Sequence record: LC788711.1
Direction: 5' to 3' (one strand)
Source of the DNA: Escherichia coli phage NG_S8
Length of the DNA: 64,000 bases
Shown here: positions 11,540 to 32,586 of the stretch, in pieces
How the letters are laid out: every line of letters begins with the position of its first letter
Numbering within the stretch: the stretch's first letter is position 1
Made by a program: the position numbers and the translations under genes
Notes under the pieces: model-generated
The model's database searches: none
Seen by the model: the letters and a program-made list of their open reading frames with translations, nothing else
What the model was told of the DNA's origin: nothing

Positions 11540-11568
11540 TTGACATCCGCCTTCGAATGAGTTATAAT
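11540..11568 (+). promoter_or_regulatory. consensus sigma70 promoter (TTGACA-17 bp-TATAAT) for nrdD
   Basis: TTGACA 11540-11545, 17 bp spacer, TATAAT 11563-11568; GGAGGG RBS before the ATG at 11598. Confidence 0.75.
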
Positions 11569-11597
11569 AGTAGTCTTAGTTAGAGAAGGAGGGTATA

Positions 11598-13472
11598 ATG
11601 AATCGCAATGAAGAACTAAAGTATAAAGGAATGCAGTCCTTGATTCGAAACTGCAAAGAAATTATCGAAGGTTCAGCAGATGAAGAGCTGCTGTTTAATA
11701 ATGCCAATAAGCCCTCAGAACGTTTCCCTACACAAAGGGATATGCTTGCAGGGGAATTGAGTAAATATCTGATTCTGGAAGAAATGCCAATCCAGATTCG
11801 AAATGCTCACATGATTGGTGATATTCACTTCCATGATGCTGATTACGCTGCGTTAGGTATGACTAACTGTTGCCTGGTTGCTTTGGAAGATATGTTGAAG
11901 AATGGTATGAAGGTTGGTAATGCTGAAATCAGTACACCAAACTCTATTACTACTGCGGCTGCTATCACAGCTCAGATTATCACTCAGGTTAGTTCACATC
12001 AATATGGGGGTACTTCTGTAGACCGATTAGATGAAGTATTGGCTCCTTATGTTCGTAAGTCTTATGATAAGAATCATGCGTTTGCAAAGCGTTGGACTAA
12101 GGATGAAGCTAAAGCATCTGTAATGGCTACGGAAATGACTGAGAAAGAAGTTTACGATGCCTGTCAGGGCCTGGAGTATGAAATCAATACGATGTTCAAC
12201 TCTAATGGTCAAAGTCCGTTTATTACCTTTGGTTTTGGTCTAGGAACTTCTTTGGAAGCACGTCTTGTACAGAAAGCAATACTAGAAGTACGTATGGATG
12301 GTTTGGGTATCAATAAACGTACAGCTATCTTCCCTAAACTGGTATTTGTTTTGCGTGAGGGCGTAAACATGAAACCTGGTGATGTTAACTATGATATCAA
12401 GAAGTTAGCTATGAAATGTACTGCTGAACGTATGTATCCTGACTACATCAGTTATGATAAGGTTGTAGAAGTTACGGGGGACTACAAAGTCTCTATGGGC
12501 TGTCGTTCGTTCCTGGCTGCTGCGGAAGATGGTGAAACTTCTGGTCGTAACAACTTAGGCGTTGTTTCCGTAAACCTTCCTCGAATCGCTATCGAAGCGG
12601 AAGGAAATATTGATCTATTCTTCGATCTGCTTGAGCTGCGTGTGGATACCGCGTTAAAAGCATTGGAGTGGAGGGTTGATCGCTTAAAATACATTCAAGC
12701 TAAAGCTGCGCCCATCCTCTATATGTCAGGAGCCTTTGGATTACGTCTGGGGCCAGATGAATATGTATTTGATCATTTCTACAAGCGTGCTTCTGTATCT
12801 CTAGGGTATATTGGTTGCCACGAAATGTTGCAGCTCATGTTTGGTAAAGATGTAGATACAATGTCTGAGTCTTGTATCAAGTTCGTTCAACGTGTGCTAC
12901 AATACATGCGTGATCGTGCTGATCAGAAGAAGGAAGAGACTCAATTAGGGTATAGTCTGTATGCTACACCATCTGAATCTCTATGTGACCGCTTCTGTCG
13001 CCTAGACCGTGAGTATTTCCCAGAGCATGAAGATATTCTGGCTAAAGGATATTACACTAATTCCCATCACCTTGATGTAGAACGTAAGGTTGCTCCAAAT
13101 GTGAAGTTTGATTATGAGTCTAACTTTACTCCTATTGCTTCTGGTGGGTGCATTTCCTATGTGGAATTACCGGATATGAAACGATTCCCTGATGCACTGG
13201 AATGGGTTATTAACTATGCTGCAAGTAAAGTTCATTACTTCGGTATTAATACTCCAGTAGACTCTTGTGGGGAATGTGGGTTCTTGGGTGAAACTATAGC
13301 TTCTGAGGATGGTTTCAAATGCCCAATTTGTGGCAATCATGATCCTGAGACTCTTGAGGTAACTCGTCGAGTTTGTGGATATCTTGGAAATCCAGGTGCT
13401 CGTCCGTTTAACCCAGGTAAACAACATGAGGTTATGGGTCGAGTGAAACATCAAGACATTCGCGCTAAATAA
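11598..13472 (+). CDS. nrdD: anaerobic ribonucleoside-triphosphate reductase (class III)
   Basis: C-terminal glycyl-radical motif RVCGYLG and Zn ribbon CGECGF...CPICG, 624 aa. Confidence 0.95.
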   Translation: MNRNEELKYKGMQSLIRNCKEIIEGSADEELLFNNANKPSERFPTQRDMLAGELSKYLILEEMPIQIRNAHMIGDIHFHDADYAALGMTNCCLVALEDMLKNGMKVGNAEISTPNSITTAAAITAQIITQVSSHQYGGTSVDRLDEVLAPYVRKSYDKNHAFAKRWTKDEAKASVMATEMTEKEVYDACQGLEYEINTMFNSNGQSPFITFGFGLGTSLEARLVQKAILEVRMDGLGINKRTAIFPKLVFVLREGVNMKPGDVNYDIKKLAMKCTAERMYPDYISYDKVVEVTGDYKVSMGCRSFLAAAEDGETSGRNNLGVVSVNLPRIAIEAEGNIDLFFDLLELRVDTALKALEWRVDRLKYIQAKAAPILYMSGAFGLRLGPDEYVFDHFYKRASVSLGYIGCHEMLQLMFGKDVDTMSESCIKFVQRVLQYMRDRADQKKEETQLGYSLYATPSESLCDRFCRLDREYFPEHEDILAKGYYTNSHHLDVERKVAPNVKFDYESNFTPIASGGCISYVELPDMKRFPDALEWVINYAASKVHYFGINTPVDSCGECGFLGETIASEDGFKCPICGNHDPETLEVTRRVCGYLGNPGARPFNPGKQHEVMGRVKHQDIRAK

Positions 13473-13478
13473 TGAATC

Positions 13479-13512
13479 AGCCAGGTTGCTAGTCGACCTG
13501 GCTTTTATTTTA
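13479..13512 (+). terminator. putative intrinsic terminator after nrdD
   Basis: Short GC hairpin (CAGGT...ACCTG) followed by a T-rich tract. Confidence 0.4.
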
Positions 13513-13513
13513 T

Positions 13514-13542
13514 TTGCTTTCGAGCTAAAACTTATGTATAAT
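13514..13542 (+). promoter_or_regulatory. early sigma70 promoter with conserved leader
   Basis: TTGCTT-17 bp-TATAAT followed by TGATTTATAAATTTGAGAGGAGAAAGCT-ATG. Confidence 0.65.
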
Positions 13543-13570
13543 TGATTTATAAATTTGAGAGGAGAAAGCT

Positions 13571-13852
13571 ATGAGCGAATTGCTTCCGAAAGTAGATGTT
13601 TCCCATCTTGGAGAGCCTAGTGAAGAACGTAAGGCTCTAGATTGGTTGGGCGGATTTGATTATCGTCGTGTTGTTGCAACATGGAATGATAAGAAAGTTA
13701 AGAAGTTTCGGGTACATTATGTAGGTAAAGACAAGTGGCTCTGGATTGATTATGAAGAATCGAAGGGGTCTACTAAGGCTGTGAAAATTTATCGTATGTA
13801 TGGGTATTATTATGCTCACTGTGATAAGAATGAATTTACAGTACAGAACTAA
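13571..13852 (+). CDS. hypothetical protein
   Basis: 93 aa ORF directly downstream of promoter and leader. Confidence 0.55.
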   Translation: MSELLPKVDVSHLGEPSEERKALDWLGGFDYRRVVATWNDKKVKKFRVHYVGKDKWLWIDYEESKGSTKAVKIYRMYGYYYAHCDKNEFTVQN

Positions 13853-13861
13853 GGAATAAGA

Positions 13862-14065
13862 ATGAAAAACGTAAAACATCTTAAATATCGCTTAATTTAC
13901 AACGGACGTATGGAAACAGAAGATCTAGCTCAGCTAGCGATCAATTCAGATGAAGTTACAGTTCGTGCTTTGTCCATCGAGAAGCTGCGTGCTTCTTATG
14001 AAAATCGTATTATGGAATTGGAGGAAAAACTTTATGGACTTCTTGAATCAGAATCTAAAAAGTAA
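13862..14065 (+). CDS. hypothetical protein
   Basis: 67 aa ORF; AGGAAT 5 nt upstream of the ATG. Confidence 0.45.
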   Translation: MKNVKHLKYRLIYNGRMETEDLAQLAINSDEVTVRALSIEKLRASYENRIMELEEKLYGLLESESKK

Positions 14066-14228
14066 TTTAGAAAATATGCTTATGGAGCAGTGGAATGCTG
14101 GGTATAATGCTGGAGTAGCTACCTGTATTGCTGGTTTGGATATGCTTATTAAGCAAGAGAAGGTTCGCCCAGAAGAAGCAATTCTGCTCCAAAATATCAT
14201 CGAAGGATTCAAGCAAGGAATCATATAA
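14034..14228 (+). CDS. hypothetical protein (start uncertain; the track begins this frame at 13950)
   Basis: ATG at 14034 (MDFLNQ...) gives a 64 aa product ending just before the Sir2-like gene; overlaps the previous ORF in another frame. Confidence 0.35.
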   Translation: MDFLNQNLKSNLENMLMEQWNAGYNAGVATCIAGLDMLIKQEKVRPEEAILLQNIIEGFKQGII

Positions 14229-15079
14229 TGCGTAGACTAATCGTTGTTAGTGGTGCAGGTTTGAGTGTAGATAGTGGTGTTCGTGCTTTCCGTACTGATA
14301 CTGCTAGTGGGAAATCCTTGTGGGATGAGTACGATCTAGAGGAAGTATGTAGCTTGCCTAACTTTGAAGCTGGCTTCCGTCGCTTCTGTGGTGAAGATGA
14401 TCCTAACTACTTCAGTGCTCGTTTCCCTGGCATTGATAAAGATGGTAACGATCTGTATCTCAAGACTCATGAGTTCTACAACATGCGTCGTCAGGAATTA
14501 CAGACTGTTGAGCCTAACATTGCCCATCTGCGAATTGCAGAATGGTTCCAGCGTTATGGTGCGGATAGCGTGAAGAACTTCACTACTAACGTTGATGACC
14601 TTCTGGAACGTGCTGGTATCCCTCGTGATGAAATCATTCACGCTCACGGGTACTTGAAAGAGGTGATCTATCGTCAGGGTCGCAACCAAATCATCGAAGA
14701 TGTTGGGTATACTGCGATTGCCCCTGAGGATTACGAATGGGTAAAACCAAACGTAACATTCTTTGGTGAGACGGCTCCGTGGTATATGGGTCAGATTAAC
14801 CTGTTTGATACACTTACTAGCAATGATATGGTTATTGTAGTAGGTTGTAGCAACCAAGTAATCGACTTCAACTGGGAGCTATTTCCTGCTGTATGTCGTG
14901 GAACTAAGATGATGGTTGTTAACCCACAAGTTCGTTATGACGAACAGCTTGAGTATGAGAAACGTGGTGTTACTGTATGGCGTGCTGGAGCTGCCGAAGT
15001 TTTTGGTAATAAACACTTTATTGATCAAGTTGAAGCTTTTATGGAGGGAAATATTTATGTCCCAGAAAAGCATGTGTGA
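14228..15079 (+). CDS. Sir2 (sirtuin)-like NAD-binding protein
   Basis: VVSGAGLSVDSGVRAFR (GAGIS..SGIP.FR), TTNVDDLLERAG (TQNIDGLHERAG), HAHG (catalytic His), VVGCS (VVGTS); no CxxC...CxxC zinc ribbon. Confidence 0.8.
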   Translation: MRRLIVVSGAGLSVDSGVRAFRTDTASGKSLWDEYDLEEVCSLPNFEAGFRRFCGEDDPNYFSARFPGIDKDGNDLYLKTHEFYNMRRQELQTVEPNIAHLRIAEWFQRYGADSVKNFTTNVDDLLERAGIPRDEIIHAHGYLKEVIYRQGRNQIIEDVGYTAIAPEDYEWVKPNVTFFGETAPWYMGQINLFDTLTSNDMVIVVGCSNQVIDFNWELFPAVCRGTKMMVVNPQVRYDEQLEYEKRGVTVWRAGAAEVFGNKHFIDQVEAFMEGNIYVPEKHV

Positions 15080-15239
15080 TCTTTTAGTATGGCCAGACGG
15101 TAGTTGGTGCTACCGTTTCGAATTTGCTACTGATGACTTCTCATGGAAGAGTGATGATTTCTGCGTTATCTATGAGGATACAGCAGAATGGAAAGAGTTC
15201 CTTATTAAGGAGGGAGAATATGGTGAAGAAGATTTTTAA
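15055..15239 (+). CDS. small hypothetical protein
   Basis: ATG at 15055 with GGAGGG 8 nt upstream; 61 aa; overlaps the Sir2-like stop. Confidence 0.4.
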
Positions 15240-15405
15240 GGGTATCTGGAAAGGTCTAGTATGGTTTGTCAACCTAATCGGTATGATTACCATTTATTCT
15301 CTGTTCCTATCTGTTATGTGGGGTAAAGGTGAATTGAAGGTTCCAGTTCCTTTTACTGATGAAGTTAAAGTCTGGACGTGGGATGCTACTGGTGGAAATA
15401 AGTAA
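15220..15405 (+). CDS. small membrane protein
   Basis: ATG at 15220 after AGGAGGGAGA; 61 aa with one hydrophobic helix (GLVWFVNLIGMITIYSLFLSVMW). Confidence 0.45.
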   Translation: MVKKIFKGIWKGLVWFVNLIGMITIYSLFLSVMWGKGELKVPVPFTDEVKVWTWDATGGNK

Positions 15406-15899
15406 TACTCCTGTGATTTTCCTGGATATTGATGGGGTGCTCAATTCGAGCATCTCTCACCATCATGCTCCAGATAGTGAGAAGCTATTCTTTGGGGGTG
15501 ATTGGGTTTACAAGCCATTACTCCAGGCTTTTCAGAACTTTCTTGAGCCATCCCCAATAATGATTGTTGGGGTATCTTCATGGTTTTCTGTACGAAATGA
15601 AATGGAGAACGTTCAGATTATGACCGGACTCGGTTTGATCGATCGTTTTCTTGGTACAACAGATTTTACTGGAGGTGGTTTATCTCGGGGGTAATTCTGT
15701 TTTACGTTTTGTCGAAAAATATAAGCTCAAGCATTGGTGTGTCCTAGATGATGCTGGTGCTATGATGTATCAATTTCCTACTGTTATTGTAAACGGCAGG
15801 ACTGGAATAAACCTTCAAGATTTAAACGCTATCAGCTATATGCTGGAGTTTAGTCCAGATCTTGAAATGTGTAAGGCTCTTCAGAAACTTAAGGTATAA
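15359..15899 (+). pseudogene. HAD-superfamily phosphatase-like gene split by a frameshift at a G5 run (15687-15691)
   Basis: HAD motif I FLDIDGVLNS in frame A (15359-15694), motif-III-like VLDDAG in frame B (15651-15899); removing one G from GGGGG joins the frames into one ORF of about 180 aa. Confidence 0.5.
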
Positions 15900-15901
15900 G
15901 C

Positions 15902-16330
15902 ATGTTCAATAATATTTTCATGAAAGAGGTAAATCCTATGCTTCTCAACTTCTGGCGCTCTCTCCCTAATGGTATGTATAATGAAACCATCAATCTCCTT
16001 AAGATTTGGTGTGAGAATAACGATATCTTCCTGTCTTTTAAAGGCCCGCTAGAGGAAGCTCCGTGTATTGGAGTTAGTGTGGATTTAGGCGAGGGAGTAG
16101 AAGAGATTGTAGACTGGAAAGAACTTGATGAAATGGGTCTGGTTTTTGCCTTGAACCATAAGCTGTTTATGCCTGCAAATCACCGTCTTATTGTAAATTA
16201 TCGCACTGGTGAAGCTCCTGCTTTCCAGGTAAATGAACGTGAGGGCTGGTCATACTCGCCCGGGGAAGTAAATGAGGGGATTCAGAAACTTCGTCGTTTC
16301 GGGTATATGATCCCAGGTTTAACTGCTTAA
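15902..16330 (+). CDS. hypothetical protein, paralog A of a tandem pair
   Basis: 142 aa; C-terminal region aligns to the next ORF (W.EL..MGL..ALN...F.P......TGE.P...V.....W.Y...........L.R.G...PGL). Confidence 0.6.
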   Translation: MFNNIFMKEVNPMLLNFWRSLPNGMYNETINLLKIWCENNDIFLSFKGPLEEAPCIGVSVDLGEGVEEIVDWKELDEMGLVFALNHKLFMPANHRLIVNYRTGEAPAFQVNEREGWSYSPGEVNEGIQKLRRFGYMIPGLTA

Positions 16331-16339
16331 GGAGGCAGA

Positions 16340-16735
16340 ATGGAACAAGTATTTTGGCGTCAGATAGATCCTAGTTTGGTAGAGCGTGCTGAGGGGCTCC
16401 TTGCACGTTGGTTGGGGGTTGACAAGGTTAGTGTAACATTTCCGTTTACTTCTGTAACAGACCCTAGTGTAGGAGTCTTTGTGGATGAAGATGAAGATGA
16501 TGGTTGGGAAGCTGACTGGAATGAATTGTCCAGCATGGGCTTGATTGTTGCCCTCAACTTCTCTATATTCCATCCACGTGGCTTAGCCATTACACGTGAC
16601 CCCGAAACTGGTGAATCCCCTTATCTTTTGCAAGTAGAAGATGATATTTGGGAGTACACCGAAGATATTCTCGAAGAAGCTAAAGGTCACTTAAATCGCA
16701 TTGGGATCTATGTCCCAGGCCTAAATGATGATTGA
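16340..16735 (+). CDS. hypothetical protein, paralog B of a tandem pair
   Basis: 131 aa; shares the motif skeleton of the preceding ORF; GGAGGCAGA RBS before the ATG. Confidence 0.6.
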   Translation: MEQVFWRQIDPSLVERAEGLLARWLGVDKVSVTFPFTSVTDPSVGVFVDEDEDDGWEADWNELSSMGLIVALNFSIFHPRGLAITRDPETGESPYLLQVEDDIWEYTEDILEEAKGHLNRIGIYVPGLNDD

Positions 16736-16759
16736 TTTTCATTAGCCCAATCCTGATTA

Positions 16760-16786
16760 CCGAGTCATTTTGGCTCGGTTTTCTCT
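16760..16786 (+). terminator. intrinsic terminator
   Basis: Hairpin CCGAGTC-ATTTT-GGCTCGG followed by TTTTCTCT. Confidence 0.6.
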
Positions 16787-16826
16787 GTGCTCAAAGACAC
16801 TGATAGCACCTTCGGAAAAATTTTAC

Positions 16827-16855
16827 TTGCAGGATGCTCAAAATCTTGATATAAT
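16827..16855 (+). promoter_or_regulatory. early sigma70 promoter with conserved leader, about 500 nt upstream of the next start codon
   Basis: TTGCAG-17 bp-TATAAT then ATTTATATTGAATTGAGAGACATTAG, resembling the other early leaders. Confidence 0.55.
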
Positions 16856-17351
16856 ATTTATATTGAATTGAGAGACATTAGTAAAAATTGATTTTGCTAA
16901 TTTTTCTTGTTTACAATCCGCAATACGGAACAGTTAGGCTGCCCCATTAAGGGTTGTTTTAACTATTACTAGTGTTTATACTGCATTAGTTAATTATCAA
17001 TTAAGTGATCTGCGTACCCTGAATTCGGAAAGGTAAATCCAAACCGTGCATATTTAGCTCGTTATATAGGCAGAGCTTTATATGGGGGTGCGAACGAAAA
17101 GAGCAGCGAATGGTGACACGTCCAGTAGCCACCTACCAATAGGATAGTGAGGGCAATCAGAATCGGCTTAGCGGCCAATGACCTAGGTTCTGATCTGGAT
17201 AAGAGTTAAGAGAGCGCAGCACTGAGGTATGATAACTTATTCATACTGCTTGATGGTGATTAATGTTTGTGTAAATGGTAGTAATAGTTGTTCTATTCTT
17301 TTGAATAGTCCTAAAGAAAGATATCCGAATAACCAACATAGGAGTATTGTT

Positions 17352-20141
17352 GTGTTCTCAATCCTACAAGGTCACGCAGGATTTTCCAGAGATAAAGCCA
17401 CTGGCATCTGGAAAGAGATCAAAGTGGAAGATTACACCTTTGCAAAGCGATTCTCTAAAGAGCATCCAGAAGGTAAACCAGCTTCCATGCCCTTCAAATT
17501 TGATGTACTTGAAGAACTTGACCCGCAAAACCTTGCTGAAATGTTACCTATCATGCGTCGTCTTACCAAAGACCCGCATATTGTAGCTATTCGGGGTAAG
17601 TGTCTAGCTCCAAAAGATAATGTGCGTCGTACCAGAGGAAACTTTAACGTATCCAATCCTAGTCATATTATTGCTATGGACGTGGATGGTATTGTAGATA
17701 CTGGTGGCTATGACAAGTTTAATCTTGTTGGCATGGCACGTCATATTATTAAGATGTTGAATAGTATTAGTGAGGATATGTTTCCTCTTGATGCAGGGTT
17801 TATTGCCCATGCATCGTCTTCGGCTGGATTAAAACCAGGTATCCGAATGCACTTAATGCTAGAATCTAATGTCAAGGTAACGCAGGGACAGTTAAAGTTC
17901 TTATTTACATCTATCAATGATAGTAGTAAGCAAAAGTACGGCTTTGATATTGCTGACTTAGCTTATTATTCTTCTGTTCAGCTTCACTATTTCGCAGATC
18001 CCTTATTTGATGATGGTATAGTCGATCCGTTTAAAGCGGAGAATAAACCACGTCTTGTGTATGTTAAGGGTTCGAAGGTGAATCTACCTAATAACCTAGT
18101 TGACTTTGAAACAACTAGAGGTGAGTTTAAAGAAGAATTCTACTCCTTACTTGACCAAATTAAAGGCAAGAAGGCTGCATCTGATAAAGTGGAAGAAACC
18201 ATCAGCGAACTAGAAGAAGCTGAGGATGGGGTGTACCTGCGTATTATTCCAAAACTTTACCACAGAGCGTTAGAAGATGGTGTTGACTTTACATGGTTAG
18301 AACGTGAGATTAAACCAGCTTTATCTGAATATATTGCAACTAAAGATAATAGTCGTAATATTCAAGATTACTTTAATAACGGTCGTAAGCAGGCTCTCAA
18401 AGCCTTTGTAAATAACTCCAAACGTGAGATTCCACCAAACTTAAAAGGTGTACCATTAAAACGTCTAGACACAGATTCTCCACCAGAAGTTCCATACCTG
18501 AAAATTAACATTGTACCACCAAAAGGACATTTAACATTTGTTAAGGCAAGTCTTGGTACGGGTAAAACTACAGCAGTAACTAAGTGGCTAGATGCAGGTG
18601 TTCTTCCAGGAAACTTTATTGCAATCACAAATACTAGGGCACTTGTATCTTCTAACGCGAAGAAATTCGGTGCTGGTCAGTATGATAAGTCAGTTGATAT
18701 GCTGAACTTCAAACGTGGTGCCATTGATCGTATGTCTTCAACTATTCACTCTATCCATAAGTTCAAGAGCTTTGTGGGTCAGATTGATACGATCTTTATT
18801 GATGAATGTGACGCAGTAATGAATGATCTGTTATTCGCTCCGGTTGTTAAAAACCGTCGTGAATGTATTCAGGTTCTTCGTGATATCCTTATTACTGCTA
18901 AAACTGTTATCTTATCCGATGGTGATATCAGTGCAGAAACGATTGAAGCCTATGGTTCTTTGATTGATTTTGATAAACCAGTCGCATTTTATAATCACCA
19001 CCGTAAAATGCTGGCGAAAGCTCATGCTTATGAATTCCCTGATGAATCCAGTATTTGGGTTGCACTTCAAACATCTTTAGAGATGGGGGAGAAATCAATC
19101 CTAGTATCTGACTGTGGCCCGGATGAACTGAATGAGAAGGGAATGGCATTACGTCGTAATACTGGTGCGTTAGTTAAAGAAATTCACTCAAACTCTACGT
19201 CTGATGTAGATATCCGACGTATTCTGGATTATACAACTAATGAGCTAATTGATCAACAGATTGATTGTTTATTATGTAGTCCATCTGTAACGAGTGGTGT
19301 TGACTTTAACTATTTTGATAACGTATTCGTAATCACTAGAACCTCAAACCAAGCGCCAAACATGCGTTTTCAAGCAATCAGGCGCGACCGTGGTGCTCAG
19401 AACATTTATTATTTTATTGATAAATCTACGAGTGGATTTTCTGCGGGTTCCGAGCAATATAATATTGACGAAGGTTGGATTGAGTTAGCCCAACAACTGT
19501 ACGCACGTCGTCGTGAGCTGGAATCTAGAAACTATACTAGTACTTTGCGTTATTATCTGCTTGATCAGGGTGCAACTATCGATATTTTCAGCGAAAGCTG
19601 GGGAACTATCGAAGGTGCAGGCAAAGAGTATACAGAAGAGCGAATCAAAGCTATTTTGCACTCAACTCCTGAATATTGTGCACCACGTCATGCAGATGCC
19701 TATGAAGCCAAGTTACTTCTGGTTCGCTATTATCATCTGGATTCTATTAAAGATGTAACAGTGGAACACGTTGAACAGTATATCAAGGATAAACCAAACG
19801 ATAGAGCTGCATTCTTCCATAAGATGCACGACATGTTCTGGGAAGATATTAAAAAGTGTTCAAACGTAACAATCAAACCGTTTATCGAAGCTCTTAAGAA
19901 TAAGAAGAAGGATTTCTTCCTTAAGACAGGTCAGAGCGCTAACCCAAAATATGCTCGTATGTATCTTGGCATGATGGGTATCGGTAAAGATCTGGATACG
20001 GAAAAGATTGTGGACTGGTACAGAACTTACTGTAAGATCGAATGTATGCCGATTCCAGTTAAGTTTATGACAGATGAAGAACGTCAGATGCATGAGGAAG
20101 CTCTTGCTGAATTGGGGGCTAGAAATGACAGCGAAGAATAA
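17352..20141 (+). CDS. SF2-type helicase, replication-origin-binding-protein-like
   Basis: Walker A SLGTGKTT, Walker B IFIDECDAV, helicase motif SPSVTSGVDFN; probable GTG start at 17352 preceded by TAGGAG; the track ORF extends upstream to 17229. Confidence 0.8.
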   Translation: MFSILQGHAGFSRDKATGIWKEIKVEDYTFAKRFSKEHPEGKPASMPFKFDVLEELDPQNLAEMLPIMRRLTKDPHIVAIRGKCLAPKDNVRRTRGNFNVSNPSHIIAMDVDGIVDTGGYDKFNLVGMARHIIKMLNSISEDMFPLDAGFIAHASSSAGLKPGIRMHLMLESNVKVTQGQLKFLFTSINDSSKQKYGFDIADLAYYSSVQLHYFADPLFDDGIVDPFKAENKPRLVYVKGSKVNLPNNLVDFETTRGEFKEEFYSLLDQIKGKKAASDKVEETISELEEAEDGVYLRIIPKLYHRALEDGVDFTWLEREIKPALSEYIATKDNSRNIQDYFNNGRKQALKAFVNNSKREIPPNLKGVPLKRLDTDSPPEVPYLKINIVPPKGHLTFVKASLGTGKTTAVTKWLDAGVLPGNFIAITNTRALVSSNAKKFGAGQYDKSVDMLNFKRGAIDRMSSTIHSIHKFKSFVGQIDTIFIDECDAVMNDLLFAPVVKNRRECIQVLRDILITAKTVILSDGDISAETIEAYGSLIDFDKPVAFYNHHRKMLAKAHAYEFPDESSIWVALQTSLEMGEKSILVSDCGPDELNEKGMALRRNTGALVKEIHSNSTSDVDIRRILDYTTNELIDQQIDCLLCSPSVTSGVDFNYFDNVFVITRTSNQAPNMRFQAIRRDRGAQNIYYFIDKSTSGFSAGSEQYNIDEGWIELAQQLYARRRELESRNYTSTLRYYLLDQGATIDIFSESWGTIEGAGKEYTEERIKAILHSTPEYCAPRHADAYEAKLLLVRYYHLDSIKDVTVEHVEQYIKDKPNDRAAFFHKMHDMFWEDIKKCSNVTIKPFIEALKNKKKDFFLKTGQSANPKYARMYLGMMGIGKDLDTEKIVDWYRTYCKIECMPIPVKFMTDEERQMHEEALAELGARNDSEE

Positions 20142-20358
20142 AAAGTGGGAAACAAGGAAGTTTTCCGTAAAAGAACGGAAAACTTCTGTTTACGATACTG
20201 CGGAGAAACTATGTAGGGTTGTACCACCTCGTCTCGCTGGCATCCCTAACGTCTCCATATGGTTACTTAAACAACGGAAGACTCGTGTGTCTCTTCGCAT
20301 TGGCTTTGAGTTAGATAAAGTCTATGCTGAACTTGCTTCTTTGCTCAAAGAATCGTAA
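20125..20358 (+). CDS. small basic hypothetical protein
   Basis: ATG at 20125 (MTAKNKKW...), 77 aa, overlaps the helicase stop. Confidence 0.4.
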   Translation: MTAKNKKWETRKFSVKERKTSVYDTAEKLCRVVPPRLAGIPNVSIWLLKQRKTRVSLRIGFELDKVYAELASLLKES

Positions 20359-20366
20359 AAATTTAT

Positions 20367-20395
20367 TTGCTTTTAGGAAAATTTTTCTGTATAAT
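20367..20395 (+). promoter_or_regulatory. strong early promoter, near-identical to T5 PN25 as I recall it
   Basis: TTGCTT-17 bp-TATAAT embedded in AAATTTATTTGCTTTTAGGAAAATTTTTCTGTATAATAGATTCATAAATTTGAGAGAGGAGTTTAAAT-ATG. Confidence 0.8.
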
Positions 20396-20426
20396 AGATT
20401 CATAAATTTGAGAGAGGAGTTTAAAT

Positions 20427-21131
20427 ATGGCTGGTTCTCGTAGAAAGAAACTTATCCATGAAATCCCTGATGAAACCTTTAAAAAGGTTATTGAACATCT
20501 GGAGAATGGTGGTACTAAGAAAGCAGCATGTGAAATGCTCGGTGTTTCTTCTAACCCAACTATGGAACGAATGATCGAAGAATGGAGAGATCGTCAGGTT
20601 CAAGTTGCGGAAATGAAAAAGAAGAAGCGTGGAACACTGATTGAGGGTGTTGAGCTTGCAAACGTAATTGAACAGTATCTTTCTGGTGATTCTTTTGAAG
20701 AAATTGCTGATCGTAACTATCGTTCTGTAGCGATGATTAAATCTGTTCTGGAACGTTATGGTGCTCTGCTTCGTTTAAACGATATTGTTGATCCATTGAA
20801 TCCTCCGTTGATTCCTGATGATGCAATGGCAGAAGAATTTGAAGTTGGTGAACTTGTTTGGGTTCCTGGCTATCAGTGTATTGGTGAAATCAAGAAAGCA
20901 ATGACTAACCCAGTTGGCTGCTACCGTGTTTGGTTGTTATCAGAAGGTAAACAACAGAACGTTCACTATATGCACTACGAATTAGCTTCTGTTAAACATC
21001 TGGAAAAGCTGGGTGTTGATGTTAAGGCTCTGGGCTTTAAGTGGAGTCGTGAAGAAGTTATCACGTTGGTTAATGAAGCTGTTAAAGCTGCCCTGAAACT
21101 AGATAAAGAGAAAGGAAAACGTCGTGAGTAA
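20427..21131 (+). CDS. putative helix-turn-helix DNA-binding protein
   Basis: 234 aa; N-terminal HTH-like segment TKKAACEMLGVSSNPTMERMIEEW; Lys-rich C-terminus. Confidence 0.65.
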   Translation: MAGSRRKKLIHEIPDETFKKVIEHLENGGTKKAACEMLGVSSNPTMERMIEEWRDRQVQVAEMKKKKRGTLIEGVELANVIEQYLSGDSFEEIADRNYRSVAMIKSVLERYGALLRLNDIVDPLNPPLIPDDAMAEEFEVGELVWVPGYQCIGEIKKAMTNPVGCYRVWLLSEGKQQNVHYMHYELASVKHLEKLGVDVKALGFKWSREEVITLVNEAVKAALKLDKEKGKRRE

Positions 21132-21360
21132 ACTAACTGATCTGTTAAAAGCTGGAGACGTAAAATATCTCCAGCGAACTAGTTGGGAAAATAATAAAGA
21201 TTACACAGTAATCCTGAAATTCTTTGTAGATAGCAATACCGTACGCCAGTACGTGTGGATGCCTTTTGATACATCATTATTCCCAAGTGATGAAGTGTGT
21301 GAACTAACCCTAGAAGAAGCCCTGGCCGACGATTGGGAGATCGTTGAACTAGATGTGTAG
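21124..21360 (+). CDS. hypothetical protein
   Basis: 78 aa, start overlaps the previous stop. Confidence 0.5.
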   Translation: MSKLTDLLKAGDVKYLQRTSWENNKDYTVILKFFVDSNTVRQYVWMPFDTSLFPSDEVCELTLEEALADDWEIVELDV

Positions 21361-21380
21361 CAGTTACTGAAAAATTTCAG

Positions 21381-21409
21381 TTGCTTAATCCTGTAATTCT
21401 TGATATAAT
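21381..21409 (+). promoter_or_regulatory. early sigma70 promoter
   Basis: TTGCTT-17 bp-TATAAT. Confidence 0.6.
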
Positions 21410-21467
21410 ATTCTCATAGTTTGAAAGAACTATTCTGTTTAATTCTTAATTAAGGAAATCGAAAAAT

Positions 21468-21878
21468 ATGACTACTCCAACTCAGTGGACTGATGAACTG
21501 TTCGAAAAAATGTCTTCCGACTACGTTGCTCGTATGGAGCAATTCCCAGAAGATGAGCGTCCGGGCGTTAGCATGGAAATTGTTAGCGAAATTGCTCAGG
21601 AAAATGGTGTAACTCCGAACGGTTTCCGTATGAAGCTGACCAAAGCAGGTCTGTATATCAAGAAAGCTGCTGGCTCTACTTCTAAATCAAGCGCATCTAC
21701 TGGAGAAAAAGCTTCTGGTGGTTCTCGTACTTCCAAAGCTCAGGCTCACTCCGATCTTCGCTCCGCATTCTCTGATGCTGGCTTAGCCCCGGACTTCCTG
21801 GACGACGCAATCATCGACAAGCTGACCGGTAAAGCAGCTGCTCATCTGGCAGAAGCTATCCGAGCTATCACTAAGTAA
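21468..21878 (+). CDS. hypothetical protein
   Basis: 136 aa; GGAAATCGAAAAAT-ATG. Confidence 0.55.
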   Translation: MTTPTQWTDELFEKMSSDYVARMEQFPEDERPGVSMEIVSEIAQENGVTPNGFRMKLTKAGLYIKKAAGSTSKSSASTGEKASGGSRTSKAQAHSDLRSAFSDAGLAPDFLDDAIIDKLTGKAAAHLAEAIRAITK

Positions 21879-21914
21879 TTCTTAGATAAATCCACCAACA
21901 CAAGGAATACAGTT

Positions 21915-22211: not shown

Positions 22212-22221
22212 GAAACCAATT

Positions 22222-22245: not shown

Positions 22246-22261
22246 TATTTGGGATATGTAA

Positions 22262-22570: not shown

Positions 22571-22588
22571 TTCTTGGCTTTTTCTTTA
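22555..22588 (+). terminator. intrinsic terminator overlapping the PC4-like stop
   Basis: GCCAAGAA-TGCCTAG-TTCTTGGC then TTTTTCTTT. Confidence 0.7.
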
Positions 22589-22597
22589 TAAATGTAC

Positions 22598-22626
22598 TTG
22601 CTTTCGACTCAGTTTTCATATATAAT
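22598..22626 (+). promoter_or_regulatory. early sigma70 promoter with conserved leader
   Basis: TTGCTT-17 bp-TATAAT then ATTTATATAAATTGATGAGAGGATCAATT-ATG. Confidence 0.7.
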
Positions 22627-22655
22627 ATTTATATAAATTGATGAGAGGATCAATT

Positions 22656-22856
22656 ATGGCAATGACAATAACACTTCCAAAGATTCAAGCAAAACTTAAT
22701 TTGCTCTCCATAGCAAGAATCAATTACCAGGATAGTATCGGCACTCCAAACCAGAAAGCGTACAAAGATGCGTGGTTGAAAGAAGCTGCTGATTTAGCTG
22801 GTATGGCTGCTCAGTATAATAAAGAACTCAAAATGGAAATCGCAGACGATGAATAA
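22656..22856 (+). CDS. small hypothetical protein
   Basis: ATG at 22656 after the GAGAGGA RBS (the track start at 22638 lies inside the leader); 66 aa. Confidence 0.5.
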   Translation: MAMTITLPKIQAKLNLLSIARINYQDSIGTPNQKAYKDAWLKEAADLAGMAAQYNKELKMEIADDE

Positions 22857-23820
22857 TGTAAAAGACTTTATCAAACGTTGTCAAGAAGCGTACTACCAGG
22901 GAATGAGTCTTATTTCCGATGAAGAATATGATCGTCTGATTAAAAGATTCCCACTAGAGGAAGAAATCGGACCGAAAGGTGATATCCCTCATTTGTATCG
23001 TATGTATTCTTTACAGAAAGTCTATTACGATCGTGGTGATAAAGCTCCATTTAACCCATTAGGTCAGGTTGAAACTGATAAGTTAGATGGTTGTGCGATT
23101 TCTCTATTATATATTAATGGTGAATTTGTTCAAGCGTTAACTCGTGGTAACGGTATTCTAGGGAATGATGTAACGCATAATGTTAAAATGCTGAACATTC
23201 CCAAAACTATTTCCCAAAAAGTACCAACTCAAATCACTGGTGAAGTTCTCATTACTAAAGAAGTAGAGAACAAACGTAACTACGCTTCGGGTGCTATTAA
23301 CCTGAAAGATAGTGATGATTTCATGCAACGTATTGGTGAAGGTGGTTTAATCTTCGTTGCATATGGTATCCAGTGTTCAGCGGAAACAGTCGGTATTACA
23401 GAAGCCTATTTAAAAGATATGCTTTGGCTAGAGAATGAGAACTTCTTGACAGTTATTAATGTTCGTTCCTTCTTTAAATGGATTCCGACAGATGGTAAAG
23501 TTGTTCGCATTAACGACAACAATAAATTCTTCCGTGAAGGTTGGACTAATAAATTTCCTCGTGGTGCATTTGCTATTAAAGAGGATGAAGAAGGCGAAAT
23601 TACCACACTTGTTAAAGTTGAATGGCAAGTAGGGGCTTCTGGTAAAGTAACTCCAGTTGGTTATTTCGAACCGGTGATTATTGATGATGCCACAATCGTT
23701 AAAGCAACTCTTAATAACGTTGATTATATTAACGCTCTCGATTTAGAGATCGGTTGCCAGATTCGAGTGATTCGTGCTGGTGGTGTAATCCCTTGTATAG
23801 TAGAGCGAGTATACGACTAA
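22849..23820 (+). CDS. lig: NAD-dependent DNA ligase, N-terminal adenylation/OB part (separate polypeptide)
   Basis: KLDG adenylation lysine motif (TDKLDGCAISLLY), RGNG...DVT; 323 aa; the Zn-finger/HhH/BRCT part is encoded by the next gene. Confidence 0.9.
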   Translation: MNNVKDFIKRCQEAYYQGMSLISDEEYDRLIKRFPLEEEIGPKGDIPHLYRMYSLQKVYYDRGDKAPFNPLGQVETDKLDGCAISLLYINGEFVQALTRGNGILGNDVTHNVKMLNIPKTISQKVPTQITGEVLITKEVENKRNYASGAINLKDSDDFMQRIGEGGLIFVAYGIQCSAETVGITEAYLKDMLWLENENFLTVINVRSFFKWIPTDGKVVRINDNNKFFREGWTNKFPRGAFAIKEDEEGEITTLVKVEWQVGASGKVTPVGYFEPVIIDDATIVKATLNNVDYINALDLEIGCQIRVIRAGGVIPCIVERVYD

Positions 23821-23870
23821 TTCGTAACCCTTTGCTACCCGTTTACCATGTCGGAATTATAAAGTGGTTA

Positions 23871-23899
23871 TTGACATTTTCGCCGCTTAGGTATATACT
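23871..23899 (+). promoter_or_regulatory. sigma70 promoter in the ligase spacer
   Basis: TTGACA-17 bp-TATACT. Confidence 0.6.
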
Positions 23900-23963
23900 A
23901 TTATCATTCAGTTGAGGGATAGAAAGTTATGGCGAGGGTAAGCAAAGTTAGTTAAAATTGTAG

Positions 23964-23992
23964 TTGCTAAATGCTTAAATACTTGCTATAAT
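23964..23992 (+). promoter_or_regulatory. early sigma70 promoter with conserved leader
   Basis: TTGCTA-17 bp-TATAAT then ATTTATATAAATTGATAAGGAAGAAATTTG-ATG. Confidence 0.65.
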
Positions 23993-24022
23993 ATTTATAT
24001 AAATTGATAAGGAAGAAATTTG

Positions 24023-27117: not shown

Positions 27118-28004
27118 GTAGAATAACAGAACTACTTGATCTGAAAGGCATTGAATACAAAGACACAGGTGGGGACATCCTCATCTGTTGTCTCAATCCA
27201 GATCATGATGATAAACACCCAAGCTTGCGTATTGACCCTGAATCAGGTATTATGCATTGCTTGAGCTGTGGCTTCGGTAGAGGAATACCGAGCATTTACC
27301 ATTATTTTAATGAGACTCAGTACAGACAGTCACCAAGATTGTCACAAGTACGTAAAAAGATTTCAGAGATTAGGAATGGATCTACGAATCTTGCAATTCC
27401 TGAATCTGCTTACCTTTTCGAAGGTGATTTCCGAGGTATCAGTTCTAAGACCTTGAAGAAATATTTTGCTTTCCAACATCAAGCAGACTGGGAAGGCAGA
27501 ATTGTATTCCCAATAACAGATGCTGTTGGACGCAATATCCTATTTCTGGGACGTTCTATAAACAGTTCTGCCCCTCCTAAATACTTAGTAAAACCAAAAC
27601 AAGTTTCACCACCGATTTTCCCTGTACGATATAATACACCAGTTCTTGTTCTAGTTGAAGGTATCTTTGATATGTTAAATCTAGAAGATAACGGTGTGGA
27701 TTATGCTTCTTGCTGCTTTGGTACACATCAGTTTACATCTGATAACATTGCTGATAAGTTCAGTCCTTACATTATTGCTGGGGTAAGAGTAGTAGTTATC
27801 CTATTAGATAATGATGCCTCTGGTAATAAAGCTGCTCAAGCACTAGCGAAGCTAATTCGTACAAAAACACGTTTAACACCTGTAGTTGGTAACTTCCTTC
27901 TTCCAGAAGGCAAAGACCCAGGTGATTTAAATAAAGAAGAGATCGATATGTTGGCTCAACGTATTGAAATTTTAGTTGCCGAATCGCTCAAAGATTTGGT
28001 ATAA
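27114..28004 (+). CDS. DNA primase (zinc-finger plus TOPRIM)
   Basis: CCLNPDHDDKHPS...HCLSCGFG zinc-binding motif, 296 aa, translationally coupled to the helicase. Confidence 0.8.
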   Translation: MSRITELLDLKGIEYKDTGGDILICCLNPDHDDKHPSLRIDPESGIMHCLSCGFGRGIPSIYHYFNETQYRQSPRLSQVRKKISEIRNGSTNLAIPESAYLFEGDFRGISSKTLKKYFAFQHQADWEGRIVFPITDAVGRNILFLGRSINSSAPPKYLVKPKQVSPPIFPVRYNTPVLVLVEGIFDMLNLEDNGVDYASCCFGTHQFTSDNIADKFSPYIIAGVRVVVILLDNDASGNKAAQALAKLIRTKTRLTPVVGNFLLPEGKDPGDLNKEEIDMLAQRIEILVAESLKDLV

Positions 28005-28005
28005 T
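27976..28005 (+). promoter_or_regulatory. putative sigma70 promoter upstream of the polymerase gene
   Basis: TTGCCG-18 bp-TATAAT overlapping the primase 3' end. Confidence 0.45.
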
Positions 28006-30634: not shown

Positions 30635-31124
30635 TTTCAAATTGCCCGTATATGCTTTACGGGCGTTTGTATCAATTGAGCAGGAAGGTGATTATTCCGT
30701 AATTACAACAAGATATAATAAATATGTGCTAGATAACAGGGAGTTGCCTGGCACATTCTCTCAACGTAGGTTAGCCTTATTTGAGAAGCGGAAAGAATTA
30801 CCTTATAAGCTCTATCCTATTCGTGGTAGAATATCAATGTTGTCCCAATTAGTTGGGTCAAAGCGTAGCCAGTTCATAGATTCTGATGGAAATCTCATTA
30901 ACTGGAAGAAAACTACGTTCTATGATGTTATCACGTCTAAAGTTCTGCATTCTGCAAGAATTTATAATGGAAAGTATCAATGCTATGTGGCTAAAGTCCC
31001 GTATCCATTCGTGCTATCCTATGTTCCAGCTTATATAAGCTATATTCTGGTAAATAATAGCCCTGTTATTTATCAAGTCCATCAAGAGGAGCCTGAAATT
31101 CCTAGACTTAGAATAAAATTATGA
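30627..31124 (+). CDS. hypothetical protein
   Basis: 165 aa, overlaps the polymerase stop and is coupled to the next helicase. Confidence 0.5.
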   Translation: MLDFKLPVYALRAFVSIEQEGDYSVITTRYNKYVLDNRELPGTFSQRRLALFEKRKELPYKLYPIRGRISMLSQLVGSKRSQFIDSDGNLINWKKTTFYDVITSKVLHSARIYNGKYQCYVAKVPYPFVLSYVPAYISYILVNNSPVIYQVHQEEPEIPRLRIKL

Positions 31125-32473
31125 AGGTTGTTATATCTAATAAAGCCTATTTCAAGCCCGATGATGAACTCTGGGATTATTGTAGTAAGCAAACCACTTA
31201 TCACATCGAGACAATGACTAGTAAATACCCTATTATGTATAAGAATAGTGGTGTTGTTGCTAAAGAGATTAAGTGGATTCCCATTACGCGCCTGGATTTA
31301 CTAGATGCTAAGGGAGTAAAATACGAATTAGTTGATAAACGCACATTAGCTCCGGTAGAAATACCAGAACCTCAGTTCAAGCTACGTGAAGAAGATCAGC
31401 TTCCTATATATGAAGAGTGCGATGATACCTGTATTATTAATGGTAAGCCTGGATTTGGTAAAACTATCCTAGCTCTAGCTCTTGCATATAAGTTTGGCCA
31501 GAAAACTCTGGTAATCTGCACTAACACATCCATTCGTGAAATGTGGGCTGCAGAAGTTCGTAAATGGTTTGGATTCGAGCCGGGTATTATAGGTTCTGGA
31601 AAGTATAACATTGATCCACCAATCGTGGTCAGTAATATACAAACAGTGAACAAACATGCGAATAATCTTTCTAAGGTATTCGGTACTGTTATAGTTGATG
31701 AAGTTCACCACTGTGTAGCTACAACTTTCACTAATTTCCTAGAGATCTCATGTGCTCGCTACAAGATCGGTCTATCAGGTACATTAAAACGTAAAGATGG
31801 GCTACAAGTTATGTTCAAAGATTTCTTTGGATATAAGATCTTTAGTCCCCCTGTTAATAACACTGTTCCACCCACAATCCATAGGTACTCCGTACCTGTC
31901 GAGTTATCAGGAAACCAGAACGTACCATGGGCACTACGTGCTAATGATGTATATAATCATCCTGAATATCGGGAAACTATTATAAACCTAGCACATTTAT
32001 ATGTGTCTATGGGGCATAAGGTTCTCTTTGTAAGTGATAGGACGGAACTAATCCAAACAATATTAGAAGCTCTCGCACAACGTGGTGTTACAACCTATGA
32101 GATTATAGGTGCAACTCCTTTGGATGACCGATTGAGAATCCAGAAAGATGTAGCGGAGGGCGGACCCTGTGTGCTTGCAGCAGCTCAGAGTATCTTCTCA
32201 GAAGGTATTTCTCTTAACGAGCTGTCTTGTTTAATAATGGGAAGTCTCATTAATAATGAATCTCTCATAGAACAGTTAGCAGGCCGCGTTCAACGTATTG
32301 TTGACGGAAAGCTAGATCCGATTGTTGTAGATTTAATTATGAAAGGAGGTACTGGTTTAAGACAGGCTTCTGGACGTATGGCCGTGTATCGCAATAATGC
32401 ATGGAAAACTATTACTATGACTCCGGAGAAAGCAGTACAATTAGCTAAAATTGCATTTGGCAACTACTCATAA
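31121..32473 (+). CDS. SF2 DNA helicase (T5 D10-like)
   Basis: Walker A NGKPGFGKT, DEAH-like box VDEVHH, 450 aa. Confidence 0.85.
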   Translation: MKVVISNKAYFKPDDELWDYCSKQTTYHIETMTSKYPIMYKNSGVVAKEIKWIPITRLDLLDAKGVKYELVDKRTLAPVEIPEPQFKLREEDQLPIYEECDDTCIINGKPGFGKTILALALAYKFGQKTLVICTNTSIREMWAAEVRKWFGFEPGIIGSGKYNIDPPIVVSNIQTVNKHANNLSKVFGTVIVDEVHHCVATTFTNFLEISCARYKIGLSGTLKRKDGLQVMFKDFFGYKIFSPPVNNTVPPTIHRYSVPVELSGNQNVPWALRANDVYNHPEYRETIINLAHLYVSMGHKVLFVSDRTELIQTILEALAQRGVTTYEIIGATPLDDRLRIQKDVAEGGPCVLAAAQSIFSEGISLNELSCLIMGSLINNESLIEQLAGRVQRIVDGKLDPIVVDLIMKGGTGLRQASGRMAVYRNNAWKTITMTPEKAVQLAKIAFGNYS

Positions 32474-32485
32474 TTATTGTATAAT
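32457..32485 (+). promoter_or_regulatory. early sigma70 promoter, first of a tandem pair
   Basis: TTGGCA-17 bp-TATAAT then conserved leader CATAAATTTGAGAGAG. Confidence 0.55.
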
Positions 32486-32556
32486 ATATACATAAATTTG
32501 AGAGAGAAAGTTTCGGATTGATAAGAAAGTCCGAAGCAGAAAAATAAAAATTGTAC

Positions 32557-32586
32557 TTGTCAAATCCTCCCGATTTAATGTATAAT
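32557..32586 (+). promoter_or_regulatory. early sigma70 promoter, second of a tandem pair
   Basis: TTGTCA-18 bp-TATAAT then ATATACATAAATTGATGAGAGACAAAA-ATG. Confidence 0.6.

What the first reader, a model, noticed from the sequence alone, without database searches (positions are those of the whole stretch)
11540..32586. Family of at least ten near-consensus early promoters sharing a conserved leader
TTG-N17/18-TATAAT promoters sit at 11540, 13514, 16827, 20367, 21381, 22598, 23871, 23964, 27976, 32457 and 32557. Most are followed by a leader of the form ATTTATA(T/A)AAATTGA(T)GAGAG(G)A that ends in the ribosome-binding site. The 20367 copy matches the T5 PN25 promoter as I recall it, which anchors the phage family. 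This motif means early promoters in any related genome can be found by pattern, and it exposes the promoter in front of the non-coding region at 16827.
Basis: partly seen in the sequence, partly recalled or inferred. Interest (0 to 1): 0.4.

Follow-up and report, generated by a model that had tools for sequence, protein, structure and literature searches.

The report
Known T5-type early promoter family

Summary
TTG-N20-TATAAT (17-bp spacer) occurs 18 times in the window against 1.2 expected (0/100 shuffles). All eleven listed sites exist; 23871 has TATACT rather than TATAAT.

The window is 99% identical to Salmonella phage SH9 (Epseptimavirus, Demerecviridae). Every listed site aligns one-to-one with a promoter annotated in the T5 RefSeq record:
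- P-N25, P-N26, P-K28b, P-K28a, P31A and P31B
- the nrdD, T5.100, T5.108-upstream, ligA and pol promoters

The family is larger than reported. Seven more copies lie on the minus strand at 1133-11488, diverging from about 11500.

The shared leader is real: 15 of 18 sites exceed the 95th percentile of 61 other TATAAT sites in a leave-one-out test. It equals the N25 initial transcribed sequence, which published work shows speeds promoter escape. It doubles as the ribosome-binding site at only 9 of 18 sites.

The same architecture recurs in Pectobacterium, Klebsiella, Proteus and Vibrio T5-like phages.

Verdict: correct but already known, low interest.

By-product: the promoter at 16827 heads a conserved, covarying, roughly 490-nt structured RNA with no Rfam match. 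This deserves separate follow-up.

The parts
11540..11568 (+). Early promoter of nrdD: TTGACA-17-TATAAT, a 12/12 consensus match. The leader is 23 nt to the ATG at 11598.
   Evidence: orthologue of the T5 promoter at 53884-53958
13514..13542 (+). Early promoter placed directly after the terminator hairpin at 13479-13503. The leader TGATTTATAAATTTGAGAGGAG contains the Shine-Dalgarno sequence; ATG at 13571.
   Evidence: orthologue of the T5 promoter at 55708-55782
16827..16855 (+). Early promoter placed after the terminator at 16759-16779. It heads the 496-nt untranslated stretch before the origin-binding helicase gene.
   Evidence: orthologue of the T5 promoter at 58999-59073, 94.6% identical over 75 nt
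16856..17351 (+). Transcribed non-coding leader, predicted to be a structured RNA, ending at the GTG start codon at 17352.
   Evidence: z = -3.94; covariation on 8 sequences from 4 genera; no Rfam match
20367..20395 (+). Orthologue of T5 P-N25, upstream of D2. The discriminator AGATTC and the initial transcribed sequence ATAAATTTGAGAGAGGAG are identical to T5.
21381..21409 (+). Orthologue of T5 P-N26, upstream of D3; 52-nt leader.
22598..22626 (+). Early promoter placed after the terminator at 22553-22581, at the position of the T5 ligA-operon promoter.
23871..23899 (+). Orthologue of T5 P-K28b: TTGACA-17-TATACT, the upstream member of a tandem pair.
   Evidence: 100% identical to T5 over 74 nt
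23964..23992 (+). Orthologue of T5 P-K28a, upstream of ligB.
   Evidence: 100% identical to T5
27976..28005 (+). Orthologue of the T5 pol promoter (Ppol). It has an 18-bp spacer, lies inside the 3' end of the primase gene, and has a 55-nt leader.
   Evidence: Ppol was shown to be early by primer extension in T5 (PMC7472727)
32457..32485 (+). Orthologue of T5 P31A, the upstream member of a tandem pair, inside the 3' end of the D10 helicase gene.
32557..32586 (+). Orthologue of T5 P31B; 18-bp spacer; ATG at 32614.
1133..1161 (-). Leftward early promoter, at the position of the T5.087 exonuclease promoter.
2980..3008 (-). Leftward early promoter, orthologue of T5 P-H207.
3331..3359 (-). Leftward early promoter upstream of rnh.
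4737..4765 (-). Leftward early promoter at the position of the thy-operon promoter.
7720..7748 (-). Leftward early promoter upstream of nrdB, at the position of the T5 promoter at 50061-50135.
11319..11347 (-). Leftward early promoter upstream of phoH; 58-nt leader.
11460..11488 (-). Leftward promoter that lacks the shared leader; a GC-rich hairpin follows the -10 hexamer instead.
   Evidence: leave-one-out leader score -47.8; annotated as a promoter in T5 at 53776-53850
47823..47851 (-). Orthologue of the T5 late promoter P-G25. It has the same hexamers and spacing but a different leader (ATTGTTATTAAGAGGAGAAATTAAC), so it is not a member of the early class.

Best explanation
These sites are the sigma-70-dependent early promoters of a T5-like phage. 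They are read by unmodified host RNA polymerase once the second-step-transfer DNA has entered the cell.

Each promoter is a roughly 75-bp module with these elements:
- an A/T block (AAAATTT) just upstream of the -35, resembling a proximal UP element
- TTGCTa at -35
- a 17-bp (twice 18-bp) spacer
- a perfect TATAAT
- an A/T-rich discriminator (ATaTtc)
- a start at A
- an initial transcribed sequence ATAAATT(T)GA(T)GAGAG

The modules subdivide two divergent early gene blocks, leftward from about 11490 and rightward from 11540. Several sit directly behind terminator hairpins.

The shared leader is the initial transcribed sequence, called the downstream sequence region in Bujard's work. For P-N25 it has been shown to speed promoter escape. 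Its purine-rich end also serves as the Shine-Dalgarno sequence where the gene starts 21-25 nt downstream.

Shown here: the pattern, its statistical excess, positional orthology to annotated T5 promoters, and conservation across genera. Taken from the literature: sigma-70 use, early timing, and the escape function of the N25 sequence. Inferred: that the escape function applies to the other members, and the UP-element role.
For: - Excess over chance: 18 hits against 1.2 expected.
- Strand polarity matches gene orientation on both sides of about 11500.
- One-to-one alignment with 18 promoters annotated in T5 NC_005859, including P-N25, P-N26, P-K28a/b, P31A/B and P-H207.
- Position-specific conservation of the upstream A/T block, -35, -10, discriminator and +1 to +20.
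- Leader conservation validated by leave-one-out against the other TATAAT sites.
- The leader motif stays at a fixed distance from the -10 even where the start codon is 32-490 nt away. This ties it to initiation rather than only to translation.
- The same architecture appears in My1, Roth39, RP7 and PG07, with consensus AAAAATTTTAnTTGC...TATAATATTTnTATAAATT.
- Klimuk et al. 2020 (PMC7472727): T5 early and late genes have strong sigma-70 promoters, early promoters share an ATATT discriminator, and Ppol is early by primer extension.
- JBC 2025 (PMC12464699): replacing N25 +3 to +20 lowers productive RNA about 10-fold, and the native sequence accelerates escape.
Against: - No transcript data exist for this phage.
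- The exact ATATT discriminator is present in only 3 of the 18 sites; most share only the leading AT.
- One annotated member (11488-) lacks the leader entirely.
- The escape-promoting role has been measured only for N25.
- The original papers could not be read here: Gentz and Bujard 1985, Kammerer et al. 1986, and Wang et al. 2005, which was not looked up. Their content is cited second-hand or from memory.
Confidence: 0.9

Rival explanations
1. The conserved +1 to +20 sequence is mainly a class-specific regulatory signal rather than an escape-optimised sequence. It could be a DNA or RNA target through which a phage factor (for example gpT5.026 acting at the discriminator, or the D5 protein) switches early transcription off. 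Alternatively, the -10-like TAAATT at +2 to +7 could act as a sigma-70-dependent promoter-proximal pause site.
For: - The motif is kept at a fixed distance from the -10 regardless of where the gene starts.
- It is kept from Vibrio to Salmonella phages.
- The late promoters P-G25 and P-J5 lack it.
- Klimuk et al. propose that the early-specific discriminator underlies differential regulation by gpT5.026.
Against: - The gpT5.026 effects measured in vitro were small, two-fold or less.
- The native N25 sequence speeds escape rather than holding polymerase.
- No binding protein for the +1 to +20 sequence is known.
- The site at 60886-60914 in the late region carries an early-type leader.
Confidence: 0.2
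2. The shared leader is primarily an RNA-level translation signal: an A/U-rich 5' end plus GAGAGG as ribosome-binding site, giving uniformly short and efficiently translated early mRNAs.
For: At 9 of 18 sites the start codon lies 21-25 nt from the start site, and the purine run is the only Shine-Dalgarno sequence.
Against: Eight further sites keep the motif although their genes start 32-490 nt downstream and, where a start codon follows, have a separate Shine-Dalgarno sequence. By leave-one-out score the long-leader sites match the motif as well as the short-leader sites, with means of about 11 and 12 bits.
Confidence: 0.15
3. The sites are recently duplicated or mobile repeat cassettes, or chance matches in A/T-rich DNA, rather than promoters maintained by selection.
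For: The genome is 60% A+T. The general consensus scan finds no excess of weak promoter-like sites, 40 found against 48 expected.
Against: - The exact pattern is 15-fold above chance.
- Spacers and flanks differ between copies, while each copy is conserved at its own orthologous position in T5 and in other genera.
- Orientation always matches the downstream genes.
Confidence: 0.02

Closest known systems
Bacteriophage T5 early promoters P-N25, P-N26, P-K28a/b, P31A/B, P-H207 and Ppol (Gentz and Bujard 1985; annotated in NC_005859)
   Same: Same genomic positions relative to orthologous genes. Same hexamers, spacing, upstream A/T block, discriminator and initial transcribed sequence. P-K28a/b are 100% identical over 74 nt, and P-N25 differs at one base between -35 and +25.
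   Different: Host and genus differ (a Salmonella Epseptimavirus rather than E. coli T5). There are small substitutions, and P31B and the thy and nrdB promoters are only 65-76% identical.
N25 initial transcribed sequence, also called the downstream sequence region (Kammerer et al. 1986; Hsu laboratory)
   Same: The shared leader ATAAATTTGAGAGAGGAG is that sequence, and it is identical in the window's N25 orthologue.
   Different: The escape function was measured only for N25. Here it is a family-wide consensus, also kept in other genera.
T5 late promoters P-G25 and P-J5
   Same: Sigma-70 type. The P-G25 orthologue in the window also has TTG-N20-TATAAT and an upstream A/T block.
   Different: The discriminator and leader differ (ATTGTTATTAAAGAGGAG), and these promoters belong to the late class.
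T4 early promoters and their terminator-promoter cassettes (from my own knowledge)
   Same: Strong sigma-70 phage promoters with conserved positions beyond the two hexamers, often placed directly behind hairpins.
   Different: The consensus is different, there is no shared initial transcribed sequence of this kind, and the phage family is unrelated. Not tested here.

Membership tests
T5-type sigma-70 early promoters | -35 TTGnnn and -10 TATAAT separated by 17 +/- 1 bp | tested here: met
   18 exact sites with a 17-bp spacer and 2 relevant sites with an 18-bp spacer; 23871 has TATACT
T5-type sigma-70 early promoters | A/T-rich block upstream of the -35 (the -43 region, UP-like) | tested here: met
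   AAAATTT gives 0.8-1.45 bits per position across the 7 positions, computed on 19 sites (the 18 early-type sites plus 47851-). The same block is present in four other genera.
T5-type sigma-70 early promoters | Early-class discriminator ATATT (Klimuk et al. 2020) | tested here: inconclusive
   In the 19-site matrix (the 18 early-type sites plus 47851-), A at the first position in 17 and T at the second in 15. The full ATATT occurs in only 3 of the 18 early-type sites; the other sites have variants such as ATTTA and AGATT.
T5-type sigma-70 early promoters | Shared initial transcribed sequence (+1 ATAAATTTGAGAG) | tested here: met
   By leave-one-out score, 15 of 18 sites are above the 95th percentile of the control TATAAT sites; 11488- fails.
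T5-type sigma-70 early promoters | Positional orthology to mapped T5 promoters | tested here: met
   All 18 sites align with promoters annotated in NC_005859.
T5-type sigma-70 early promoters | Transcript 5' ends at these sites, appearing early in infection | not testable with these tools
   Available only by analogy with T5: Ppol primer extension, and in vitro work on N25, N26 and K28.
Shine-Dalgarno / translation initiation region | A purine-rich run 5-10 nt upstream of a start codon | tested here: inconclusive
   True for 9 of 18 sites, those with 21-25-nt leaders. Not true for the nine with 32-490-nt leaders.
Any Rfam RNA family (for the stretch 16856-17351) | A covariance-model match | tested here: not met
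   No match at gathering score across the whole window, and none at E <= 5 for 16750-17450.

The most novel reading that the evidence does not exclude
One member of the family, at 16827, may not simply be a gene promoter. It launches a roughly 490-nt structured RNA (16856-17351) that has no Rfam match and is kept upstream of the UL9-like origin-binding helicase gene in Epseptimavirus, Tequintavirus, Myunavirus and a Klebsiella T5-like phage. A structured gap of similar size is present in Proteus and Vibrio relatives.

Its last helix pairs the GUG start codon. It could be a new cis-regulatory leader controlling the replication initiator, or an RNA involved in starting replication. T5 origins have never been defined at the molecular level.
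Probability: 0.5. Interest if true: 0.55.

Novelty: already known. Interest (0 to 1): 0.15.

Why it matters
For the promoter family itself there is little new. T5 early promoters have been textbook material since the 1980s, P-N25 is a standard tool for expression vectors and for promoter-escape biochemistry, and the T5 reference record already annotates every orthologous site.

The practical value is modest:
- A matrix covering the promoter plus the initial transcribed sequence would let annotators mark early transcription units in the hundreds of T5-like genomes that currently carry no promoter features.
- The family-wide, genus-crossing conservation of the initial transcribed sequence, at a fixed distance from the -10, is a usable comparative argument that this sequence is under selection beyond N25.

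The more valuable lead is the by-product: a covarying structured leader RNA in front of the putative replication initiator gene.

Tried and rejected
- **First pattern searches.** These used a literal TTG-N17/18-TATAAT and found only chance-level hits.
- **General consensus promoter scan.** It shows no excess of weak sites, 40 against 48 expected. Only the strict family stands out.
- **Search for hidden members.** A two-block weight matrix over the whole window found no further early-type site in 33-47 kb. It found only 47851- (the P-G25 orthologue) and 60914-.
- **tRNA and Rfam scans.** Both were negative.
- **Original papers.** Gentz and Bujard 1985 and Kammerer et al. 1986 are not held in the library. 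A further literature search gave nothing useful.
- **Literature on T5 replication origins and non-coding RNA.** The searches found only that multiple internal origins were seen by electron microscopy. Nothing was found on the 16856-17351 region. The Rad anti-retron factor is a protein encoded elsewhere in the genome.
- **Bacterial genome scan.** The most conserved 20-mer of the leader RNA gave 15 scattered hits in 596 Gb, about what chance predicts by my estimate. There is therefore no host counterpart.
- **Technical limit.** Some fetched loci (L002, L004-L006) were never exported to the script machine, so they were analysed through DNA alignment and the DNA search instead.
Full report
**Observation**

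With the correct form, TTG-N20-TATAAT, the window holds 18 exact matches against 1.21 expected; none of 100 dinucleotide shuffles came close. The 18-bp-spacer form adds 27976 and 32557. All eleven coordinates in the finding are right. The only slip is 23871, which is TTGACA-17-TATACT.

Seven more copies lie on the minus strand at 1133, 2980, 3331, 4737, 7720, 11319 and 11460. Leftward and rightward promoters therefore diverge from a 250-bp region around 11500, in step with the orientation of the genes.

**Anatomy**

The sites were aligned on the -10 hexamer (18 early-type sites plus 47851-). Conservation extends well beyond the hexamers:
- an AAAATTT block ending about 4 nt before the -35 (0.8-1.45 bits per position)
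- TTGCt at -35
- a frequent GC about 5 nt into the spacer
- an invariant TATAAT
- A-T at the first two discriminator positions
- ATAAATT(T)GA(T)GAGAG from the start site onwards

I tested the leader independently of the hexamers. A leave-one-out matrix of the 22 nt after the -10 puts 15 of 18 sites above the 95th percentile, and 11 above the maximum, of the 61 other TATAAT occurrences in the window. The exception is 11488-, where a GC-rich hairpin follows the -10.

The statement that the leader ends in the ribosome-binding site is only half right. Nine sites have 21-25-nt leaders in which the purine run is the Shine-Dalgarno sequence. Eight further sites have 32- to 490-nt leaders, with their own Shine-Dalgarno sequence where a gene follows, yet keep the motif at the same distance from the -10 and with similar scores. 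The motif is therefore tied to the promoter and not only to translation.

**Identity**

Window 11000-24000 is 99.0% identical to Salmonella phage SH9 and 98.8% to LVR16A (Epseptimavirus, Demerecviridae). It has matches in 568 phage records.

The T5 RefSeq record NC_005859 carries regulatory features at every orthologous position:
- rightward: nrdD, T5.100, upstream of T5.108, P-N25 (D2), P-N26 (D3), ligA, P-K28b, P-K28a (ligB), pol, P31A and P31B
- leftward: the corresponding set, including P-H207

A 36-sequence alignment pairs each window site with its T5 counterpart. Identity over 75 nt ranges from 65% to 100%; K28a and K28b are identical. The 20367 copy differs from P-N25 by one base between the -35 and +25.

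**Mechanism**

- Klimuk et al. 2020 (PMC7472727) state that all T5 classes use sigma-70 holoenzyme and that early promoters share an ATATT discriminator. They also report that Ppol behaves as an early promoter by primer extension in vivo, and that TATAATAGATTCAT is -12 to +2 of N25. That fixes the start at the A located 7 nt after the -10.
- The Hsu laboratory paper (PMC12464699) summarises the older work. N25 forms a very stable open complex and is rate-limited at escape. Replacing +3 to +20 (Kammerer et al. 1986) cuts productive RNA about 10-fold, and the native sequence evolved for fast escape.
- The shared leader is that sequence. My inference is that the whole family is built on the same plan: strong binding through the UP-like block and a perfect -10, balanced by an A/T-then-purine initial transcribed sequence that eases escape.
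- The late promoter P-G25, whose orthologue is 47823-47851 (-), has the same hexamers but a different leader. This is consistent with class-specific downstream sequences.

**Reach**

I fetched about 40 kb around the D2 homologue from four distant relatives:
- Pectobacterium phage My1, 69.5% D2 protein identity
- Klebsiella phage Roth39, 68.2%
- Proteus phage RP7, 47.5%
- Vibrio phage PG07, 36.4%

The window-trained matrix finds 11 sites in My1 against 0 in shuffles. The bare pattern finds 10, 19 and 12 sites against 0.5, 1.1 and 0.6 expected in the other three. With two exceptions in RP7, their strand polarity follows the genes. Their joint consensus is AAAAATTTTAnTTGC...TATAATATTTnTATAAATT.

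Of the 15 loci with two or more matches, 12 lie on contigs of 104-128 kb, the size of T5-like genomes, including T5 and My1 themselves. Single matches occur on many other contigs. Pattern search therefore works within the family, but a single hit is not diagnostic.

**Verdict on the finding**

The finding is real, correctly interpreted and already known. I rate novelty as already known and interest at 0.15.

**By-product: the non-coding stretch after the 16827 promoter**

- Position: 16856-17351 lies between the promoter and the GTG start of the UL9-like origin-binding helicase gene. The start is confirmed by the conserved AGGAG and by ATG at the same position in My1 and Roth39.
- Database searches: there is no tRNA and no Rfam match, even at E <= 5.
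- Folding: the sense strand folds to -140 kcal/mol (z = -3.94), against -106.7 kcal/mol (z = -2.54) for the antisense strand.
- Conservation of the gap: a gap of 470-800 nt is kept in T5, My1, Roth39, RP7 and PG07. In T5, My1, Roth39 and RP7 it is headed by a family promoter. The RP7 and PG07 gaps also fold unusually well, with z = -3.67 and -3.75.
- Two versions: among 441 matching phage records, 161 match over only about half the query, in two pieces. In the representatives I aligned, the two ends and an internal GGCTTAGCGGCC island are kept while the central module has a second sequence version.
- Covariation: RNAalifold on eight sequences from four genera predicts 83 pairs, 29-30 of them with compensatory changes.
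- Controls: 90.9% of cells are paired against 38-48% when partners are slid. Thirty pairs show double changes, against 13.9 +/- 2.4 in shuffles (0/500) and 7-13 when slid. The covariation score is 0.296 against 0.06-0.10.
- Start-codon helix: the last helix pairs AACAUAG with the GUG start region and leaves the GGAG in the loop.
- Host counterpart: the most conserved 20-mer has only chance-level hits in 596 Gb of bacterial genomes.
- Caveats: there are only eight sequences, and the structure was derived from the same alignment that was scored.

I regard this as a probable new structured leader RNA. Its function is open: translational control of the initiator, or a role in replication start.

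Noticed in passing
window 16856-17351 (+): A conserved, covarying structured RNA of about 490 nt lies between the 16827 promoter and the GTG start of the origin-binding helicase gene. It has no Rfam match. The sense strand folds with z = -3.94. Thirty of 83 predicted pairs carry compensatory changes across four genera. The last helix pairs the start codon.
   Followed up: partly
window about 16985-17265; loci L010-L013 against L002, L008 and L009: The central part of that leader exists in two very different sequence versions among Tequintavirus and Epseptimavirus phages. In 161 of 441 records only about half the query aligns; in the aligned representatives the ends and a GGCTTAGCGGCC island are kept. 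The predicted helices are maintained across both versions.
   Followed up: partly
L005 (Proteus phage RP7) about 16860-16945: In RP7 a second family-type promoter (TTGACA, 18-bp spacer, TATAAT) sits between the structured stretch and the helicase gene. The structured RNA may therefore be a separate transcript in that phage.
   Followed up: no
L006 (Vibrio phage PG07) about 15700-15870: The corresponding non-coding gap in PG07 contains a direct duplication of about 55 nt (GACTATCACTTTGTAGCCTCAATCCTCGGATTGTGTGAGTCAGTTAACTTCTGTCG, present twice, the copies about 110 nt apart).
   Followed up: no
window 11319-11568: Three promoters are packed into 250 bp at the divergence point. These are two leftward promoters (11488 and 11347) and one rightward promoter (11540), which is a perfect 12/12 sigma-70 consensus. 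The 11488 promoter lacks the family leader and instead transcribes a GC-rich hairpin (11440-11461) immediately after the start.
   Followed up: partly
window 47798-47851 (-): This is the orthologue of the T5 late promoter P-G25. From my own knowledge, its leader ATTAAGAGGAGAAATTAAC is nearly identical to the synthetic ribosome-binding site used in pQE-type expression vectors.
   Followed up: partly
window 60886-60914 (-): A promoter-like site in the late region (TTTACA-17-TATACT) carries an early-type discriminator and leader (ATATTCATACAGTTGAGGAG). The T5 stretches I fetched annotate no promoter between P-J5 and the oad/lpp promoters, which is where I estimate this site maps.
   Followed up: no
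window against T5 L002 (for example between the helicase gene and D2, and between D6 and the primase gene): The HNH homing endonuclease genes annotated in T5 (hegH, hegI, hegJ) have no annotated counterparts in LVR16A, which is 98.8% identical to window 11000-24000. They account for most of the length difference in the early region.
   Followed up: no
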